From: a virus
Virus genome (UHGV): UHGV-0090146
Direction: 5' to 3' (one strand)
DNA: 13,371 nt
Positions 2-13,067 of this stretch are shown here, piece after piece; within the stretch, counting starts at the first letter, position 1, and the number at the start of each line of letters is the position of its first letter. The position numbers and the translations under genes are program-made. A model generated the notes under the pieces. That model did no database searches and was not told the origin of the DNA. It saw only the letters and a list, made by a program, of their open reading frames with translations.

Positions 2-2308
2 TTGCGCGATGGCGATGTAGTTAATGTTTATTGCCAGCCGTCCGGCGCAATCGGCGACCTTATCGGCGCAATACTAAAGCCAGTAACGAAGATTTTCTCT
101 TTTCTTACACCGAAAGTATCCACGCCAAAAACAGATACCAGTTCAAAAACATCACCTAACACCAGCCTGAAGTCACAGACAAACATTGCGCGAAATGGCG
201 AGGCGCGACCTGATAACTTCGGACAGATTCGCGCGTTTCCTGATTTGCTTCAGGAATCATTGTTTGAATACATCAACAATATTAAATATGTCACCGAGTT
301 CATGAACTTTGGACTAGGAAAATATGATGTTTCCTCTGTGCGCTACTCGGAATCCAATCTTGGTTCACTGGCTGGTGCGAGTTACACCATTTATCAGCCT
401 GGAGAAGTTATTCCGGTTGTTCTTGAGCCTTACGCATTTGATGATGTGGATGGGCAGGAGCTTTATGGGCCGAACGACACAAACTCTGTTGTAATTGAGT
501 CAGCGACAACAACATCAGTTACCAGCACTGATTTTGCTGGTGGACAAATAGCTGTAAAAATACCAAAAAATTCCGCTTTCGATTACTTTGTTGATCTGGT
601 TATGCCTCATGATGTGGTTTTTAAACTAAACATCACTTACGCGCTTGGAGGTGGCGCGTCGGTCACTGAAAACGTCACCTTATCAGGTAGTCTTGTGTCA
701 GCATCAGAAACAGATGATGGAAATATTCCACCTGTTGATTACTGGTACACATTTATAATTAATAACATCAACTACTCAGGTGCACCGATATCATCTCTGA
801 ATGGCGTAACCATCAATAACACTTACTTCAACCTTACCGATAACCAACCTCTTGTTTCAGGTCCGTATTTCTCACCAATAGAAGGAGATCAGCTGTGGTT
901 CCACTTTGTTGCTCAATTTGGTGAAGATCAGGGTGCTATTGTCAAGGCTGAGTGGTGGGCGGTGGATGATGATAACGTGCAGATTGCAGGCTCATACCAA
1001 TCAACCACATATACCTTTGTGGCTGGCGGGGCGGATACCTACTATTACACAAGGAAAAAAACTCCATCATATGGGAATGCCAGATACGCTGTTCAGTTTA
1101 CAAGGACTAACAACAGCACACAGCAATCGATCATTCAGCTTGATGAAGTCCATTCAATCGTCACCCGTAACAATGTTTCGTATCCAGATGACACGGTAGT
1201 TAAAGTCATTGTCCGCGCCACCGAGAACGCCACAGGCAGCCGTGACAGGAAATACAATGCATTAATCACGCGTCACACGATAGGATATGACCGTGATGCT
1301 GGCACTGTGCGATATACGCTTGCGCCTTCACGCAGTTTTGCTGATGCCGTGCTCCATAACTGGCTTATTACCGCTGGCAATCCAGAAAACACGATCGACA
1401 TCGTGAGGTTATATGAAATTGCCGACAGCCTGCCTGATGAGCGTCTTGGTTATTTCGATTACACGTTTGACGATGAGGATAAGAGCATAGGCGAGCGTTT
1501 GCAGACCATCTGCGATGCGGCTCGTGTCACTGCGTTTTGGGATGATGGCGTGATGAGCTTCTCCCGTGATGAAAAGCGAGAATATCCGGCAACTGTATTC
1601 AACACCAGAAATACGCAGAGCGACGGTTACAAGCTAAGTTATGATATCAGCCTTCCCGGAACTTATGATGGCGTTAACGTCGAATATCGCGACCCAACAA
1701 CGAATAAGCAGGCCAACGTTTACTATCGAATTACCGATGGTGGCATTGTCGAAGGAGAGCCGACTAAAGCGAAGAAATTCGATATGCTTTATGTTCGCAA
1801 TCGCTATCAGGCTGTTGATCGTGCAATCCTTGAGTGTCGTCGCCTGATTTATTCACGCCGCAGCATGGAAATTAAAGCACTGGCAGACGGAGAATGGGTT
1901 AACGTTGGCGACATGATTCAGGTTGTCGACATATATGATGATGTGCAGCAGACTGGCGTTATTGAAGAGCACAATGGTAACGTATTCACGACAAGCGAAC
2001 AGCTAAGCGCTGATGATAATCTTTATGTTGTGATTACCAGTTCAGACGGCAGCGTGTCAGACAGATTGCCAGCAACAGTAACCGGATTACATACATTCAC
2101 CTGCAACCTGCCTTCTGATTTTCAGCTAAACATATGGGATGGAACTAATGTTCAAAGTGAATCCCGTTACGTGATGAGCACAGAGAAAGAACTTGACACT
2201 ACTTTGTGGGTTGTCAGCCAGAAGAATCCTGGTAGTGACGGAACGACAACACTGACGATGAGTGAATACAGCGACGACATGTACGAATATGCCATCCCGT
2301 CATCGTGA
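2..2308 (+). CDS. Tail tip / host-specificity protein, lambda gpJ-like (5'-truncated, C-terminal 768 aa in window)
   Basis: ORF is open from the window edge, so the N-terminus lies upstream. Blocks such as [53 protein letters not shown] and [16 protein letters not shown] resemble the central part of lambda J as recalled from memory. Stop TGA at 2306-2308, followed by AAGGAG and the tailspike start. Confidence 0.7.
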
Positions 2309-2347
2309 TACAATATACATCAAATTCACAAAGGAGCATTTATTATA

Positions 2348-4261
2348 ATGGCTACCACACCAACCAATAAACCAATTCCGTCAGAAGACCCTCGTGACCT
2401 GAAATTTAATGCCGGAAAGATTGACGAGGTAGTGACATCTGACGCGCATTACTACACCGACCGCTTCGGTGTGCGCCGCTGGACAATTGCTGGATTTCAG
2501 CACACCGCAGAAGAAGCAATCAGTAACTATGGATACATTACGATGGACAGCTTCGAAGATGGTGCGACACTGACGCTACCTAATCAGGTTTTGCGTTATG
2601 AGGCAACTGGAGAATATTACCGTTGGGATGGTGAGTTTCCTAAAACCGTTTCTGTAGGTTCTACCCCTGAAACTGCTGGCGGTATTGGGATTGGCGCGTG
2701 GGTTAGTGTTGGCGATGCGTCATTGAGGCATGAACTTGAAATCACAAGCGCTATTCCTTTTGTAAGGCCAGAAAATTTCGGTGGTGTAGGTGATGGAGTG
2801 ACGGATGATACAAATGCAATAAAAGCTGTTATAGCAACTGGGAAACCAATTTCTTTAGTAGGTAAAAAGTGGCTAATAACATCTACCATAGAATTTCCTG
2901 ATGGATATGCTGTTGATGCAAGGTCGTCAGAAATAGTTGCGGACACAGGCTCTGCACCTATCTTCCTTTTTAAGGGTAATAATCTTGGTATGCATTTCAC
3001 AGGCTCATTAGTGAGAGGGACTGCTGGTGCATTCATGAAGTTGGAAGGCCAGACAGATGCGCCTACAGCAAGCAATCAATATGCTAAATTATTAAAACTT
3101 AGTGGTGTCCATATCTCCTCGGCAACTATAGATGCCGCTCTTATTTTCGATAAGGCAGTACGAATAATATTCATTGATAGTTGTGTGTTCTTTTGCAGAA
3201 ACGGAATAATTAGCAATGGTAAGTCTGTAGAGATTACCATTCAAAAATCAGTTATATACGGTGCCACGAGTGATACTGATACTTCTGGTATAAAAATAAC
3301 AAGTTCAGGTGGTGCAAGCAAGTACAGTGAGGGGTGGCATATTTCAGACTGCACAATAGATAATTTCGAAAATACAATTGATCTATCCGATATATTTGTA
3401 TTCACCTTAAATGGTGGCTACACGGCATGTAATTCTAATACCGGATATGCTATTACCGTGCGCGGACCGACTACAACAACTCACTGTCGAGATCTTTATT
3501 TTAACGGCATGTTTGGCGGTAAAATTCGCTTCCTTGACCAAACTGCTGGTCCTGTAACTATGCATGCCAGGATAACAGGAGAACTCCTGTTCACTAAGGC
3601 AGGAACGTGTCTTGCTATTGGGGCAAACATGGCGGCAATTGATATCAGCAACTTAAAGATTGTATCTGCAACGCCTGGTAACACTGCCATCTCTGTAGCG
3701 AACGGGAGTGCCAATATTAATATCCGTGGGATTAGTACAGATGCAACTCTTGGGGCAGGGATTATATTTAATGGGGAGTCAGGCAGTAACTGCTCGATTT
3801 CTGATTTTTCATATTCTGGTTCTGGAGAGGCTTTATCACTTGCTAGGCCAGTTAAGCTTTCCAACGTTCCTACAGTTGGTAGCGAAACTTTGAATTGGTC
3901 AATAAAGTACGATTATGTATCTGCATCAAAAGATGTTGCAGTTGGGTCTTACATAAATCAACTGCAAATGACTATTGCAAGATATAGCAAGATTAAGATT
4001 AATATTAACCTCGCATATTCAGGTGGGGCAGCAAGCAATTCTCAAGTTATTGGAATAACAGTCCCTACTGGGGTGGTTCTGCCAAATGGTACGAACTCGA
4101 TGCAGTTCACATTACCAGCAACTGCTGGAACATTAACTATGAGCATTGATGCAACAACAACGCTAGACTTCAAGAATCTGTCATTCAGCATCGATAACAG
4201 AGCTGGTAACCAACTGCGTATTTTGGCCGGCTCTCACTTGTCTGTATCTTTAGATAATTAA
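2348..4261 (+). CDS. Tailspike / tail fiber with pectate-lyase-like right-handed beta-helix (probable polysaccharide depolymerase, receptor-binding protein)
   Basis: 637-aa ORF with AAGGAG at 2331-2336 upstream of ATG 2348. Motif FGGVGDGVTDDTNAIKAVIATG is typical of the Pectate_lyase_3 / beta-helix N-cap (established family signature). The first ~130 aa form a separate N-terminal domain. A terminator follows. Confidence 0.85.
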   Translation: MATTPTNKPIPSEDPRDLKFNAGKIDEVVTSDAHYYTDRFGVRRWTIAGFQHTAEEAISNYGYITMDSFEDGATLTLPNQVLRYEATGEYYRWDGEFPKTVSVGSTPETAGGIGIGAWVSVGDASLRHELEITSAIPFVRPENFGGVGDGVTDDTNAIKAVIATGKPISLVGKKWLITSTIEFPDGYAVDARSSEIVADTGSAPIFLFKGNNLGMHFTGSLVRGTAGAFMKLEGQTDAPTASNQYAKLLKLSGVHISSATIDAALIFDKAVRIIFIDSCVFFCRNGIISNGKSVEITIQKSVIYGATSDTDTSGIKITSSGGASKYSEGWHISDCTIDNFENTIDLSDIFVFTLNGGYTACNSNTGYAITVRGPTTTTHCRDLYFNGMFGGKIRFLDQTAGPVTMHARITGELLFTKAGTCLAIGANMAAIDISNLKIVSATPGNTAISVANGSANINIRGISTDATLGAGIIFNGESGSNCSISDFSYSGSGEALSLARPVKLSNVPTVGSETLNWSIKYDYVSASKDVAVGSYINQLQMTIARYSKIKININLAYSGGAASNSQVIGITVPTGVVLPNGTNSMQFTLPATAGTLTMSIDATTTLDFKNLSFSIDNRAGNQLRILAGSHLSVSLDN

Positions 4262-10671: not shown

Positions 10672-10869
10672 TCAAACATCCTCATAACACCAATATGCAA
10701 CGCAAATTATTTCAACCAAATCATTTGATGATAAAAATTTATTACCATCATAAATTGCGTGAATTCTTTCACCATCAACAGTTAATGCCATAACATTTCT
10801 TCCTATCTGCGGACGCCAGAGATAGCAATCAAACCATTCAACATCATACCAATCATCTTCTGGACTCAT
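10672..10869 (-). CDS. Hypothetical protein (65 aa), translationally coupled
   Basis: ATG overlaps the stop of the 491-aa gene (ATGA) and is preceded by GAGGT. Its stop lies 1 nt before the ASCH gene start. No recognisable motif. Confidence 0.55.
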   Translation of the reverse strand: MSPEDDWYDVEWFDCYLWRPQIGRNVMALTVDGERIHAIYDGNKFLSSNDLVEIICVAYWCYEDV

Positions 10870-12341
10870 TTCAACCTCGGATTTATGTGCACAGTGTTTC
10901 CGATAAATACGCAGTAACCATCCTCTTCAAGTGATGGCAATACACTTGACCTGAGGCGGTCGTAAATTTTAGGTATTCCTTTGAATGGCCTAACATTTTT
11001 AAGTGAATCATAAAGCCACTTTACCGTTACGTTTGTTTTTCCTTTCTGAGCGGCAGAGCGTAGCTTTTCGGCAACAACATCAAATTCAGAACGCTCGCCA
11101 GCATATCCATTTGATTCCACGGCGTCGGTGAATGTTTTTGTCAGTGCGTCATAAACGCTGATAGCGCGACTAATTTCATTTTCACAGATAATTTTTGACC
11201 TCTTTCCTCCATCACACCAGTTTTCAGCAGCGTGAAATATTGCTGCCAGGCGGATTATTTGCTTATCAGCTTTACCCATTGCACCACGAAGAAGAACATG
11301 GTCCCACTTACCGCCTGGAAGGAAGTTTTTCTCCCACTGGTTTCGCAACATGCCGATCATTCTTGCTGAATCATTGTGAAGAGTCAGTCTTGTTTTTTCT
11401 GCTGACACAACATTATGTATAAATCTTGCATATTCCGACCTCAAGCTGTCTGGCATTGGCTTGCTTACAGGGCAGTCATTAACCATGTCCCAGTGTTCGC
11501 GATAGCCAAGCATTGATTGCTCGCGCAACATCAGGAAACGTTCAGAAAGACCGTTCCCCCTGTCGCCAGCGGCAAGAATGGCATCAATACTTTCATCCTG
11601 CGCAATCACACTTATGTTTCCAAGCACGTAACCAGATGAAACGCCACGACCAACACGAGCAGAGCCAATGAATCCTCCATCCCAGCCCTTCAGGATGACT
11701 TCGGCGTTTGCCTTTCCACCTTCTTTTCCGTAAGAGAGGCCAAGGCATGTGTTAAGGACGCTTGCCTCGTCACTTATCAGGTTAAAAAACCCACCTTCAT
11801 GGATGGCCTGATGCTGAACAGCCTCCGGCGTTGCGTCCGTCAGTGGATATGTAATCGTATAAAGCTCTTCCAGCTTCTCCTTTTCCCGAGCAATATCATC
11901 GCCGATTAGTGCCTTTGCATTCTGATTACTGGCCTCTTTATATGCCTTCATCAACTCTTCAATGCGAAGATTTATTTTTATGATCTGCTTTTCCATCTTT
12001 TTGGAAAGATTGTCATATTCAATCTTCACCGGATTCATGTGCATTGAGTTGATGGCGGTTTTCCCTGCTGATGGAGGCTGAGAAGTAACCACGTAAAGAG
12101 AAACTGGAAGTTCTGAATGGTAATACTCAACGCTAAAGTTTCTCGTCATTGCGCTGGCAACGCACCCAAGCAAATGCATGAACGATGTATTTATTGGGAA
12201 CTGAACGGCACGAGCTGCAGCGATTGCATAACGAGACAGCAAATCAGTCCGGTGCTCACTGGTAAGTTCTGTTTCTGAGTACGTTACATCACGCTCCTTA
12301 CCTTCCTTGATGTCAAGCCACATATTTGAGCTTGGTGTCAT
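10866..12341 (-). CDS. Hypothetical protein (491 aa) with degenerate P-loop NTPase-like motifs; possible DUF3987-like replication-associated protein
   Basis: Long ORF with SQPPSAGKTA (GKT, P-loop-like) and, about 90 aa later, FNLISDEAS (hydrophobic stretch plus DE, Walker-B-like). No canonical SD before ATG 12341 and an alternative Met at 12323, so the start is uncertain. Family assignment is from memory only. Confidence 0.8.
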   Translation of the reverse strand: MTPSSNMWLDIKEGKERDVTYSETELTSEHRTDLLSRYAIAAARAVQFPINTSFMHLLGCVASAMTRNFSVEYYHSELPVSLYVVTSQPPSAGKTAINSMHMNPVKIEYDNLSKKMEKQIIKINLRIEELMKAYKEASNQNAKALIGDDIAREKEKLEELYTITYPLTDATPEAVQHQAIHEGGFFNLISDEASVLNTCLGLSYGKEGGKANAEVILKGWDGGFIGSARVGRGVSSGYVLGNISVIAQDESIDAILAAGDRGNGLSERFLMLREQSMLGYREHWDMVNDCPVSKPMPDSLRSEYARFIHNVVSAEKTRLTLHNDSARMIGMLRNQWEKNFLPGGKWDHVLLRGAMGKADKQIIRLAAIFHAAENWCDGGKRSKIICENEISRAISVYDALTKTFTDAVESNGYAGERSEFDVVAEKLRSAAQKGKTNVTVKWLYDSLKNVRPFKGIPKIYDRLRSSVLPSLEEDGYCVFIGNTVHINPRLK

Positions 12342-12414
12342 GATGGAAGGCGACGCGAGCAGGAGATACTTTTAATTCCCTTGCTTCGTTGAAGATGTCT
12401 TGAGCTGTAATCAT
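12313..12414 (-). CDS. Possible small ORF (33 aa, MITAQDIFNEARELKVSPARVAFHHDTKLKYVA)
   Basis: ATG at 12412-12414 preceded by AAGGG with 7-nt spacer. It overlaps the stop of the upstream small ORF (TGATG) and the 5' end of the 491-aa gene. Too short to validate by sequence alone. Confidence 0.25.
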   Translation of the reverse strand: MITAQDIFNEARELKVSPARVAFHHDTKLKYVA

Positions 12415-12614
12415 CACTGAACCCTTAAAATTGTTAATTCGCATGTGTCCCTGTTGTATTTTGTCCAGTACACAAAGTCGCTTTTCTTCGAAATTTTGGA
12501 CAGGCACATCCTGAAAATAAGCACCTCAACACCTATCGCCTTAAGATTTATAATCTTTTTCTCGTCAACCCTCATTCTTGAGACTATATCGCGAACTCGT
12601 TTCATGTTTGACAT
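12414..12614 (-). CDS. Possible small ORF (66 aa from MSNMKRVRDIV...)
   Basis: Sits directly downstream of a strong minus-strand promoter candidate. Weak RBS. Basic protein with no recognisable domain. Confidence 0.3.
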   Translation of the reverse strand: MSNMKRVRDIVSRMRVDEKKIINLKAIGVEVLIFRMCLSKISKKSDFVYWTKYNRDTCELTILRVQ

Positions 12615-12650
12615 TTTTACCGCCAACCGTGGTTAATCATGGTGTGAAAG

Positions 12651-12679
12651 ATTATATAAAGATATAAACGAAATGGCAA
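12651..12679 (-). promoter_or_regulatory. Sigma70-like promoter for the minus-strand operon
   Basis: On the minus strand: TTGCCA (plus 12674-12679), exact 17-nt spacer, perfect TATAAT (plus 12651-12656). About 30-40 nt upstream of the first minus-strand ORF. Confidence 0.55.
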
Positions 12680-12740
12680 CCATATCATTCTTGGCGTGGT
12701 TTAAGCGACTAAATGGTTATCTGTGGGTAACGTGGGTAAG

Positions 12741-12767
12741 GCGTGGGGCAACCAACCTTCCCCACGA
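12741..12767. repeat. 27-bp repeat copy 1 (GCGTGGGGCAACCAACCTTCCCCACGA), internally palindromic
   Basis: Identical to the copy at 12929-12955. Contains inverted arms CGTGGGG / CCCCACG separated by 11 nt. Confidence 0.85.
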
Positions 12768-12928
12768 AGTTTTCCTATAAGTATATGTAATATAATAAAA
12801 TTATTATTATTTGGGTTAATGGGTACAAATGGATTATTTGAATATATTTATAAGGGGATGGGTATGAAATCTTCCCCTTTTTACCCACGAAAAATAAAAA
12901 CATTCAAATCAATTATTTACGATGAAAA

Positions 12929-12955
12929 GCGTGGGGCAACCAACCTTCCCCACGA
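12929..12955. repeat. 27-bp repeat copy 2 (identical to 12741-12767)
   Basis: Exact 27/27 match to copy 1, 188 bp away, in the same orientation. Confidence 0.85.
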
Positions 12956-13008
12956 CCTGCCCCACGGGCAAAAATTTACCCCACGAGCACGTTTTTAACG
13001 CATTCCTG

Positions 13009-13037
13009 TTGACGTGGAATCATAGCTGATGTAGATT
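13009..13037 (+). promoter_or_regulatory. Sigma70-like promoter for the rightward small-gene operon
   Basis: TTGACG (13009-13014), 17-nt spacer, TAGATT (13032-13037). GAGGGTGAAGAG RBS and ATG at 13068 lie about 30 nt downstream. Confidence 0.5.
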
Positions 13038-13067
13038 GAACTCATCGAAACAAACGAGGGTGAAGAG

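What the first reader, a model, noticed from the sequence alone, without database searches (positions are those of the whole stretch)
12690..12990. Iteron-like motif cluster around an AT-rich core next to the replication genes: candidate origin or operator array
At least eight copies of a CGTGGG(G/T) / CCCCACG(A/G) motif occur in both orientations within about 270 bp, flanking a roughly 100-bp strongly AT-rich segment. No convincing CDS covers the segment. The layout of repeated protein-binding sites plus an unwinding-prone core is the classic architecture of phage and plasmid origins. It could alternatively be a multi-operator site for a regulator controlling the two divergent operons.
Basis: partly seen in the sequence, partly recalled or inferred. 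Interest (0 to 1): 0.75.

Follow-up and report, generated by a model that had tools for sequence, protein, structure and literature searches.

The report
Probable phage replication origin with iterons
A 330-bp gene-free stretch between two outward-facing early promoters of a virulent Salmonella/E. coli phage carries about 14 copies of a short G-run motif in mirror-image arrays around the most AT-rich DNA of the genome, and is most likely the phage's still-unmapped replication origin, next to its MCM-like helicase gene.

Summary
Eight exact CCCACG/CGTGGG hexamers lie in 12731-12985, against at most 3 per 300 bp in 1000 shuffles. In complete relatives, 7 of 8 and 5 of 6 CCCCACG heptamers sit in this one intergenic region. 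The true unit is broader, TGGG(G)NA(A/G). About 14 sites form three dyads (12742-12766, 12852-12889, 12930-12954) plus phased half-sites, G-rich on the top strand to the left and C-rich to the right. They flank a core of 17% GC; the same core in relatives is the genome-wide GC minimum (14-15%). The element sits between divergent sigma-70 promoters and is not coding.

Site order and spacing are conserved in 22 relatives. The same layout recurs in phages whose DUF3987 helicase is only 63%, 50% and 40% identical. Some of these use different iteron sequences. It always lies upstream of the helicase operon.

The element does not follow the terminase. Phage Akira has an unrelated TerS/TerL but a 96%-identical element. 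That argues against a TerS-recognised pac site, although PhageTerm-defined ends in the Ymer genus fall at the core's edge.

Best reading: a bidirectional iteron origin (about 0.55). Rivals: an early-promoter regulatory array and a pac site. No binding or replication was tested.

The parts
10866..12341 (-). DUF3987 (SF6, MCM-like) helicase gene, 491 aa here. All relatives encode 517 aa. A 5-bp deletion at 12341/12342 puts the conserved 26-aa N-terminus (MITAQDIFNEARELKVSPARVAFHHG) out of frame.
   Evidence: PF13148, E=5e-35; phrog_2373; frame comparison. AF2 model pLDDT 89.6 with a C-terminal winged helix. Foldseek top hits are all MCM.
12414..12626 (-). First small ORF of the leftward operon (70 aa, no family hit). 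This slot is mosaic among relatives: at least 4 unrelated versions, AP2-like in the Akira type.
12651..12679 (-). Leftward sigma-70 promoter candidate P_L: TTGCCA, 17 nt, TATAAT (11 of 12 matches).
12722..12739 (+). Two direct half-sites, TGTGGGTAA and CGTGGGTAA, 9 bp apart and phased with dyad A.
   Evidence: G-run columns invariant in 23 sequences
12742..12766 (.). Dyad A: CGTGGGGCAA-N5-CTTCCCCACG. The same 25-mer is annotated as a repeat, without function, in the phage Vi II-E1 GenBank record.
   Evidence: weak hairpin, -7.5 kcal/mol
12768..12851 (.). AT-rich core (17% GC) with internal GGGT(T/A)A sites at 12810-12825. The window lacks 43 bp between 12825 and 12826 that all 22 relatives have. 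The homologous core is the genome-wide GC minimum in relatives.
12852..12889 (.). Module B: AAGGGGA and TGGGTAT (top strand), then TTCCCCTT and TTACCCACG (inverted). A degenerate third dyad.
12890..12929 (.). Second AT-rich spacer (19.5% GC). It holds the only IHF-consensus match of the window (12907-12919, AATCAATTATTTA).
12930..12954 (.). Dyad C: an exact second copy of the dyad A 25-mer.
12957..12985 (-). Two further inverted half-sites, CTGCCCCACG (12957-12966) and TTACCCCACG (12976-12985).
13009..13037 (+). Rightward sigma-70 promoter candidate P_R: TTGACG, 17 nt, TAGATT. The -35 hexamer is invariant in 23 relatives. It is followed by small early genes from 13068.

Best explanation
This is the phage's origin of bidirectional DNA replication.

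About 14 short sites, TGGG(G)NA(A/G), are arranged as three dyads plus helically phased half-sites. They point inward from both sides, G-rich on the top strand to the left and G-rich on the bottom strand to the right. They would nucleate a phage initiator complex on either side of a very AT-rich, easily melted core.

The most likely initiator is the adjacent DUF3987 protein. It is an MCM-related (SF6) ring helicase with a C-terminal winged-helix domain. It would assemble in opposite orientations on the two arrays, melt the core, and recruit the phage Zn-ribbon primase and the host polymerase. Transcription from the two flanking outward early promoters may help opening.

What is shown:
- the anatomy of the element;
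- its uniqueness in the genome;
- conservation of site order and spacing;
- co-occurrence with the helicase module;
- independence from the terminase.

What is inferred:
- that the sites are bound at all;
- that the helicase is the binder;
- that replication starts here.
For: 1. The cluster is non-random and specific to this locus.

2. The 23-sequence alignment shows invariant G-runs with variable flanks. Site spacings of 9, 11, 18, 50, 8, about 76, 6, 17, 9, 47, 18, 12 and 16 bp are conserved.

3. The core is the lowest-GC 100-bp window of whole relatives. It is 15% in HC6 and 14% in IME207, and the next lowest windows are 28-30%.

4. The same layout lies upstream of the DUF3987 helicase operon in relatives with 63% (L038, L039), 50% (Ymer) and 40% helicase identity (79-kb Vibrio phage D71). 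The layout is phased direct sites, a dyad, an extreme AT core, inverted sites, then a promoter.

5. Two further loci at 40% identity have the same layout with different iterons. L052 uses ACGGGTA. L053 uses (A/G)GGAT, with a core of 12% GC. The architecture is kept while the sequence turns over.

6. The element does not travel with the terminase. Akira's TerS/TerL (Terminase_6) have no similarity in HC6 or IME207 (Terminase_3 plus HNH). Its portal and coat proteins are 97-98% identical, and its element is 95.8% identical to that of IME207.

7. The helicase model has an MCM-like fold and a C-terminal winged helix. This agrees with PMC4889955 and PMC11724360.

8. The cumulative GC skew minimum of HC6 falls inside the element.
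Against: - No experiment bears on replication or binding.
- The skew minimum coincides with the switch in gene orientation, so it is not independent evidence.
- Iteron type changing with helicase divergence is also what simple co-descent predicts.
- Flank bases of the sites, such as the CG prefix, do not track the two helicase subtypes (L024, L029).
- In T1-like phages with a homologous helicase, the equivalent untranslated region is where pac has been mapped (PMC7718038, PMC11447400).
- PhageTerm-derived record starts of the Ymer-genus phages Amona and Pappous fall at the right edge of the AT core.
- DnaA boxes are not enriched.
- In this window the helicase N-terminus is frameshifted and 43 bp of the core are missing.
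Confidence: 0.55

Rival explanations
1. Regulatory array for the two divergent early operons. A phage (or host) DNA-binding protein occupies the roughly 14 sites, wraps or loops the AT-rich DNA, and activates or shuts off P_L and P_R together. This would resemble the multi-site operator/IHF region between the divergent early promoters of phage Mu (Mu comparison from my own knowledge).
For: The element lies exactly between two good outward sigma-70 promoters. The last right-hand sites centre about -60 to -110 from the P_R start. In some relatives CCCCA motifs fall inside the P_L spacer (read). The only IHF consensus of the window is inside the element. Uniqueness in the genome fits an operator as well as an origin.
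Against: No site overlaps the -35 or -10 of P_R in any lineage. P_L and the adjacent first gene are mosaic while the sites stay the same, so there is no conserved neighbouring regulator. About 130 bp of 12-15% GC, kept as the genome minimum across lineages whose core sequences are not alignable, is more than a promoter UP element or a bend needs.
Confidence: 0.18
2. Packaging initiation (pac) site. The small terminase subunit binds the two repeat arrays, bends the AT-rich DNA and directs the first headful cut inside the core. This would resemble SPP1 pacL/pacC/pacR or the P1 pac hexamer arrays (comparison from my own knowledge).
For: - The family packages by headful (PMC8954984).
- Record starts of Amona and Pappous were set by PhageTerm (PMC11445585). 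They lie 11-14 bp left of the right-hand CCCCAC sites, and terS lies 240 bp downstream.
- In T1-like phages pac maps to the equivalent untranslated region (PMC7718038).
- Several records and contigs end inside the core: Akira, KpV2811, ZCKP8, ZCKp20p, ZC2 and L028.
Against: - Akira has unrelated TerS/TerL but a 95.8%-identical element. A TerS recognition site should be replaced together with terS.
- The Ymer TerS is a third type.
- In this lineage terS lies about 2.7 kb away, outside the window.
- Junctions of the records that end in the core lack 2-34 bp. That points to assembly breaks in 14%-GC low-complexity DNA, not to precise ends.
- KlebP_265 carries the element, yet PhageTerm found no termini (PMC11769527).
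- PhageTerm called ends in only 2 of 7 Ymer-genus phages.
- phiKp_14 has a Ymer-like TerS but another helicase family, and it lacks the full element.
Confidence: 0.12
3. Structural hairpins. The dyads would act as inward-facing transcription terminators or insulators, or as cruciforms, with the extra sites being incidental.
For: Each outer dyad is followed on its inner side by a short T-run (read). The arms keep complementarity through changes on both sides in some relatives, for example GGGGCA/TGCCCC against GGGGAAG/CTTCCCC.
Against: The terminator scan finds none. The stems are 7 bp with 11-nt loops, only -7.5 kcal/mol, and module B is not better than shuffles. No promoter points inward. Most sites are single half-sites. 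There is no Rfam match.
Confidence: 0.03

Closest known systems
SaPI (Staphylococcus aureus pathogenicity island) replication origins
   Same: Two sets of short iterons flank an AT-rich region, next to the gene of an initiator that is itself a helicase. Iteron sequence is lineage-specific. (From my own knowledge of the SaPI literature; not tested here.)
   Different: The SaPI Rep belongs to a different helicase family and its ori lies 3' of rep. Here the array lies 5' of the helicase operon, between divergent promoters, and binding is untested.
SV40/polyomavirus and papillomavirus core origins (large T antigen, E1)
   Same: Short G-rich sites in inverted orientation flank or abut an AT tract. 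The initiator is the replicative ring helicase, which loads head-to-head. (Own knowledge.) The helicase here is AAA+ and MCM-like with a winged helix.
   Different: Those are SF3 helicases with a dedicated origin-binding domain, and their origins are far more compact (about 64 bp). Here there are about 14 sites over 260-310 bp and a 5'-3' SF6-type family (PMC11724360).
Phage lambda ori (O-protein iterons plus AT-rich region)
   Same: Dyad-symmetric iterons lie next to an AT-rich unwinding region, and initiation is activated by nearby transcription. (Own knowledge; lambda iterons are discussed in PMC7466680 and PMC11447400.)
   Different: Lambda ori lies inside the O gene, has 4 tandem iterons on one side only, and needs a separate initiator (O) and helicase loader (P). 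No O/P homologues were found here.
SPP1 pac / P1 pac packaging sites
   Same: Two arrays of short repeats flank a central region where the cut is made. The length is about 160-270 bp. They lie upstream of the late/packaging genes. (Own knowledge.)
   Different: Those sites are bound by, and inherited with, their own small terminase. This element is unchanged across a terminase swap.
Divergent untranslated region of coliphage T1 and other Drexlerviridae
   Same: The genome layout is the same: a DUF3987 helicase operon to the left, about 700 bp non-coding, then an early operon to the right. It contains the genome-wide GC minimum (14%) and several short repeat families.
   Different: The T1 repeats are unrelated in sequence (GATGTGATTGTTGC, AAATTACGCC, CGATTAACA). 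The region is known in the literature for pac, not ori. The TLS and SU57 papers report that no origin was found (PMC11447400, PMC7718038).

Membership tests
Iteron-type replication origin (phage/plasmid/satellite) | Cluster of repeated short sites, statistically enriched and confined to one locus of the replicon | tested here: met
   8 CCCACG in 255 bp against at most 3 per 300 bp in 1000 shuffles. 7 of 8 and 5 of 6 genome-wide heptamers lie in the homologous locus of HC6 and IME207.
Iteron-type replication origin (phage/plasmid/satellite) | Adjacent AT-rich DNA-unwinding element | tested here: met
   17% GC over 12770-12851. It is the genome-wide minimum (14-15%) in relatives. The cores are 12% GC in D71 and L053. 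Actual unwinding was not tested.
Iteron-type replication origin (phage/plasmid/satellite) | Linked to the gene of the initiator or replication module, and co-inherited with it | tested here: met
   It always lies upstream of the DUF3987 helicase operon, from 99% down to 40% helicase identity.
Iteron-type replication origin (phage/plasmid/satellite) | Specific binding of the initiator to the iterons | not testable with these tools
   The only evidence is a predicted winged helix and N-terminal two-helix motif in the helicase.
Iteron-type replication origin (phage/plasmid/satellite) | Supports initiation of replication (autonomous replication, bubble arcs, marker-frequency peak) | not testable with these tools
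   No experimental data were found in the literature searches.
Iteron-type replication origin (phage/plasmid/satellite) | Host DnaA boxes (present in many but not all such origins) | tested here: not met
   TTATNCACA with up to 1 mismatch: 11 in the window against 15.4 expected. Only one falls in the element, and it overlaps an iteron.
pac site of a headful-packaging phage | Co-inherited with, and specific to, the small terminase subunit | tested here: not met
   Akira's TerS/TerL are unrelated to those of HC6 and IME207, while its element is 95.8% identical to that of IME207.
pac site of a headful-packaging phage | Physical DNA ends of the first headful map to the site | tested here: inconclusive
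   PhageTerm starts of Amona and Pappous lie at the core edge. KlebP_265 shows no termini. Other record ends in the core look like assembly gaps.
pac site of a headful-packaging phage | Located in or just upstream of terS | tested here: inconclusive
   It lies 240 bp upstream of terS in Ymer, about 2.7 kb upstream in Akira-type genomes, and 8.4 kb upstream in T1.
Operator array of a transcriptional regulator | Sites overlap or abut the core promoter elements they control | tested here: not met
   In this window the nearest site ends 23 bp upstream of the P_R -35 hexamer (12985 against 13009). Relatives show a similar gap. Some P_L variants do contain CCCCA motifs.
Operator array of a transcriptional regulator | Cognate regulator gene conserved with the sites | tested here: inconclusive
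   The adjacent first gene is mosaic and only sometimes AP2-like. A regulator encoded elsewhere cannot be excluded.
Intrinsic terminator / structured RNA | Stable GC-rich hairpin followed directly by a U-tract, or a match to a curated RNA family | tested here: not met
   0 terminator-like sites. Stems fold at -7.5 kcal/mol with 11-nt loops. No Rfam match.
Protein-coding gene | Open reading frame conserved in relatives | tested here: not met
   The 91-aa ORF is unique to this window and is created by the 43-bp deletion. Relatives have stops and no annotated CDS.

The most novel reading that the evidence does not exclude
The element is the founding example of a conserved origin type for phage replication modules built on the MCM-related DUF3987 (SF6) helicase. 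These modules occur in Skatevirus-like phages, the Ymer genus, large Vibrio phages and probably T1-like phages. In this reading the helicase recognises mirror-image iteron arrays itself, through its winged helix or N-terminal helices. It loads head-to-head around the AT core without a separate initiator or loader. That would be a bacterial-virus counterpart of SV40 T-antigen/E1 or MCM double-hexamer loading. The same region might also supply the DNA end from which headful packaging starts, whatever the terminase type.
Probability: 0.2. Interest if true: 0.75.

Novelty: new member of a known kind. Interest (0 to 1): 0.55.

Why it matters
No replication origin has been mapped for this widespread group of virulent enterobacterial siphophages (Skatevirus, Macdonaldcampvirus, Akiravirus and relatives). 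Many of them are being developed for biocontrol and therapy. The same is true of their T1-like cousins, where recent genome papers state explicitly that no origin was found.

A concrete, bounded candidate with defined sites makes the question directly testable by marker-frequency sequencing, footprinting and plasmid assays. It also offers an entry point to how an MCM-like bacterial-virus helicase is targeted to DNA.

There is a practical point as well. The 14%-GC core is a recurrent assembly break point, and it appears to have caused gaps or false genome ends in several deposited genomes.

Tried and rejected
- Literature searches for the repeat sequence, for Vi II-E1, for the Skatevirus-group genera and for DUF3987 with iterons found no description of the element. 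The Vi II-E1 and Akira papers are not held.
- The CiPGr genome-reduction paper on Skatevirus seszw gives no information on this intergenic region, and no supplements are held.
- I first treated contig and record ends inside the AT core as evidence for a physical terminus. I rejected this after seeing that the junctions lack 2-34 bp.
- I considered the adjacent small ORF as the site-binding protein, because the Akira type is AP2-like. I rejected it as the conserved binder, because the slot is mosaic.
- I tested whether the site flanks (CG prefix) track the two helicase subtypes. They do not.
- DnaA-box, sigma-54 and sigma-32 look-alikes were examined by eye or by scan and dropped.
- Terminator, hairpin and Rfam readings found nothing convincing.
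- GC skew was computed but is confounded by gene orientation.
- The sequence search of the helicase against PDB chains found nothing. Only the fold search was informative.

Full report
**What the window is.** The window comes from a virulent siphophage of about 45-48 kb. It belongs to the Skatevirus / Macdonaldcampvirus / Akiravirus / Shuimuvirus cluster, which includes Salmonella phages Vi II-E1, IME207 and Akira and E. coli phages HC6 and C1. Identity is about 88-90% over most of the window. These phages encode no DNA polymerase. They carry a primase and two helicases, and they package by headful (PMC11769527, PMC8954984).

The gene layout is as follows:
- tail genes on the plus strand (2-4261);
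- a mostly minus-strand replication and recombination block: SSB, a Sak4-like ATPase, an exonuclease VIII-like protein, an SF2 helicase, a plus-strand Zn-ribbon primase, an ASCH protein, and a DUF3987 'helicase' at 10866-12341;
- one small minus-strand ORF, up to 12626;
- a 441-bp non-coding gap (12627-13067);
- small plus-strand early genes, from 13068.

CCCACG/CGTGGG occurs 12 times in the window, and 8 of these lie in 12731-12985. The expectation for the whole window is 3.06. In 1000 dinucleotide-preserving shuffles no 300-bp window held more than 3. A 30-nt unit occurs twice (12738-12767 and 12926-12955), with a degenerate third copy at 12852-12881. Positions 12770-12851 are 17% GC, against 44% overall. 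The motif is not scattered across the genome: in HC6, 7 of 8 CCCCACG heptamers are in the homologous 290 bp, and in IME207, 5 of 6 are.

**Anatomy.** Reading G-runs on both strands gives about 14-15 sites of the form nTGGG(G)NA(A/G). They fall into three modules:
- Module A: two direct sites (12722-12739), then dyad A (12742-12766).
- Module B: two internal GGGT(T/A)A sites (12810-12825), then AAGGGGA/TGGGTAT facing TTCCCCTT/TTACCCACG (12852-12889).
- Module C: dyad C (12930-12954), then two more inverted sites (12957-12985).

Left of the centre the G-runs are on the top strand. Right of it they are on the bottom strand. Direct neighbours are 9-11 bp apart, and the dyad half-sites are 17-18 bp apart.

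The element is bracketed by two outward-facing sigma-70-like promoters. P_L is on the minus strand (TTGCCA-17-TATAAT, 12679-12651). P_R is on the plus strand (TTGACG-17-TAGATT, 13009-13037). No terminator-like site and no Rfam family was found. The dyads fold only weakly as hairpins (-7.5 kcal/mol).

**Conservation.** I aligned 23 distinct versions of the region, taken from relatives fetched through the helicase and from annotated genomes. The G-run cores, the order and spacing of the sites, much of the AT core sequence, and the P_R -35 hexamer are invariant or nearly so. The bases flanking the G-runs vary: the prefix can be CG, TT, AT or CT, and the tail GCA, GAAG or GTAA. The spacer between modules B and C, and everything to the left including P_L and the first gene, are mosaic.

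The 91-aa ORF 12723-12998 is peculiar to this window. No relative keeps an ORF across the element.

**Deeper relatives.** The same architecture is found where the helicase is only 63% identical (metagenomic contigs L038 and L039, motif TGGGGTG). It is found at 50% identity in Pectobacterium phage Ymer, which has GTGGGGAAC three times at 10-bp spacing plus a dyad. It is found at 40% identity in the 79-kb Vibrio phage D71, with TGGGGGTAA sites, a 12%-GC core, and even the same TTTTTACCCACG.

Two further loci at 40% identity (L052 and L053) keep the layout: direct sites, a dyad, an extreme AT core, inverted sites, then a promoter. It lies upstream of [small ORF, DUF3987 helicase, primase, SF2 helicase]. 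They use other iterons, ACGGGTA in L052 and (A/G)GGAT in L053.

In coliphage T1 the homologous helicase operon diverges from the early operon across an untranslated region of about 700 bp. That region contains the genome's GC minimum (14%) and three unrelated short repeat families.

**Origin-like properties.** In whole genomes of relatives the core is by far the lowest-GC 100-bp window: 14-15%, with the next lowest at 28-30%. The cumulative GC skew minimum of HC6 falls inside the element. However, this coincides with the switch of gene orientation, so I give it little weight. DnaA boxes are not enriched. The only IHF-consensus match of the window lies in the element, at 12907-12919.

**The candidate initiator.** The DUF3987 protein is 517 aa in all relatives. 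Its AlphaFold model (pLDDT 89.6) has two short N-terminal helices, an AAA+ core and a C-terminal winged helix. All top Foldseek hits in the PDB are archaeal MCM or eukaryotic Mcm2-7.

This matches published work. Profile analysis classified DUF3987 proteins as SF6 helicases distantly related to MCM, with a C-terminal wHTH, and proposed them as phage replicative helicases (PMC4889955). Biochemistry showed that a PriCT-DUF3987 protein is an oligomeric 5'-3' helicase (PMC11724360).

The small gene between the element and the helicase is mosaic. It is AP2-like only in the Akira type, so it cannot be the conserved binder. That the helicase itself binds the sites is an inference. The site flanks do not track the two helicase subtypes.

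**The pac rival.** This deserved serious attention, for four reasons:
- The Ymer-genus paper states that genome starts were set by PhageTerm for Amona and Pappous, which were called as headful pac (PMC11445585).
- Those starts lie at the right edge of the AT core, 11-14 bp before the right-hand CCCCAC sites. terS lies 240 bp downstream.
- In T1-like phages pac is placed in the equivalent untranslated region (PMC7718038 and PMC11447400).
- Several deposited records and contigs end inside the core.

Against this:
- Those junctions lack 2-34 bp, as expected from assembly breaks in 14%-GC low-complexity DNA.
- KlebP_265 carries the element, yet PhageTerm found no termini.
- Most tellingly, Akira has a small and large terminase (phrog_309; Terminase_6N/6C) with no detectable similarity to anything in HC6 or IME207, which have an HNH protein plus a Terminase_3 TerL. 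Its portal and coat proteins are 97-98% identical, and its element is 95.8% identical over 480 bp to that of IME207. A TerS recognition site should have been exchanged together with terS.
- Klebsiella phage phiKp_14 has a Ymer-like TerS but an AAA_25 helicase, and it lacks the full element.

**The regulatory rival.** An activator or repressor array for the two early promoters cannot be excluded. Position between the promoters and uniqueness in the genome fit it equally well. Two things argue that something more than promoter control is being selected. No site overlaps the P_R core promoter in any lineage. And an extreme-AT core of about 130 bp persists as the genome minimum across lineages whose core sequences are not alignable.

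**Verdict.** The most likely reading is a bidirectional iteron-type origin serving the DUF3987 (MCM-like) helicase replication module (about 0.55). The alternatives are a regulatory array (about 0.18), a pac site (about 0.12) and structural hairpins (about 0.03); the remainder covers mixed or unknown functions. The kind of element is known. This instance, and its apparent conservation across DUF3987-helicase phages, is not described in the literature I could search. The two 25-nt repeats are annotated in the Vi II-E1 GenBank record without any function.

Noticed in passing
window 12825/12826: The window lacks exactly 43 bp of the AT-rich core (AATATTATTATTCATATTATAGATAGTAATTAACATAATATTA) that all 22 aligned relatives have. 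The right edge of the gap coincides with the point where the Akira GenBank record is linearised. This may be a real deletion, or an assembly gap in 14%-GC DNA.
   Followed up: partly
window 12341/12342: There is a 5-bp deletion relative to every relative (CATCATGGCATGACACC becomes CATCATGACACC). It frameshifts the conserved 26-aa N-terminus of the DUF3987 helicase, giving 517 aa elsewhere and 491 aa here. It is either a sequencing error or a truncated helicase.
   Followed up: partly
Akira MK599416 (L055) 40898-42641, compared with HC6 (L003) 24-1953: Akira carries a TerS/TerL pair of a different family (Terminase_6) from its close relatives (HNH plus Terminase_3), while its portal and coat proteins are 97-98% identical. 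This is a clean terminase-module swap onto the same portal.
   Followed up: partly
records MZ440881 (ZCKP8), OP373729 (ZCKp20p), OP481875 (ZC2), MT682064 (KpV2811), MK599416 (Akira); IMG/VR contigs L015, L028: Many deposited 'complete' genomes are linearised inside this AT core. At least two of them lack 2-34 bp at the junction. The core is a recurrent assembly break point and may produce false termini.
   Followed up: partly
T1 NC_005833 (L051) 48700-48836 and 1-460: The divergent untranslated region of T1 holds the genome's GC minimum (14% at 199-300) and three repeat families: GATGTGATTGTTGC twice around record position 1, AAATTACGCC twice, and CGATTAACA three times. It is a candidate for adjacent pac and ori elements.
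   Followed up: no
Serratia phage Susuwatari ON287371 (L049) 1860-2130: Downstream of an AAA_25 primase/helicase gene lies a long G/C-run palindrome (CCCTCTCCCCCCCC...GGGAGGGGGGAGAGGG), followed by GTCAGGGATG three times. It looks like a different candidate origin.
   Followed up: no
Akira L055 223-495 and homologous slot in IME207, Vi II-E1, L021, L026: In several relatives the first gene next to the element is a small AP2-domain-like protein (E=6e-4, below the Pfam cut-off). From memory, bacterial AP2 domains have been reported to bind poly(dG)/poly(dC). The slot is mosaic, and in this window it holds no AP2-like protein.
   Followed up: partly
window 12907-12919: The only match to the IHF consensus WATCAANNNNTTR in the 13.4-kb window lies inside the element, between modules B and C. 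It is conserved in the window-type subgroup only.
   Followed up: partly
window 12526-12554 (+): A strong promoter-like site (TCAACA-17-TATAAT, 10 of 12 matches) lies on the plus strand inside the minus-strand small ORF and points toward the element. It could give an antisense or inward transcript.
   Followed up: no
window 12628-12636 and 12695-12704: Two degenerate copies of the site, with GG instead of GGG (CGTGGTTAA and CGTGGTTTAA), bracket the P_L promoter.
   Followed up: no
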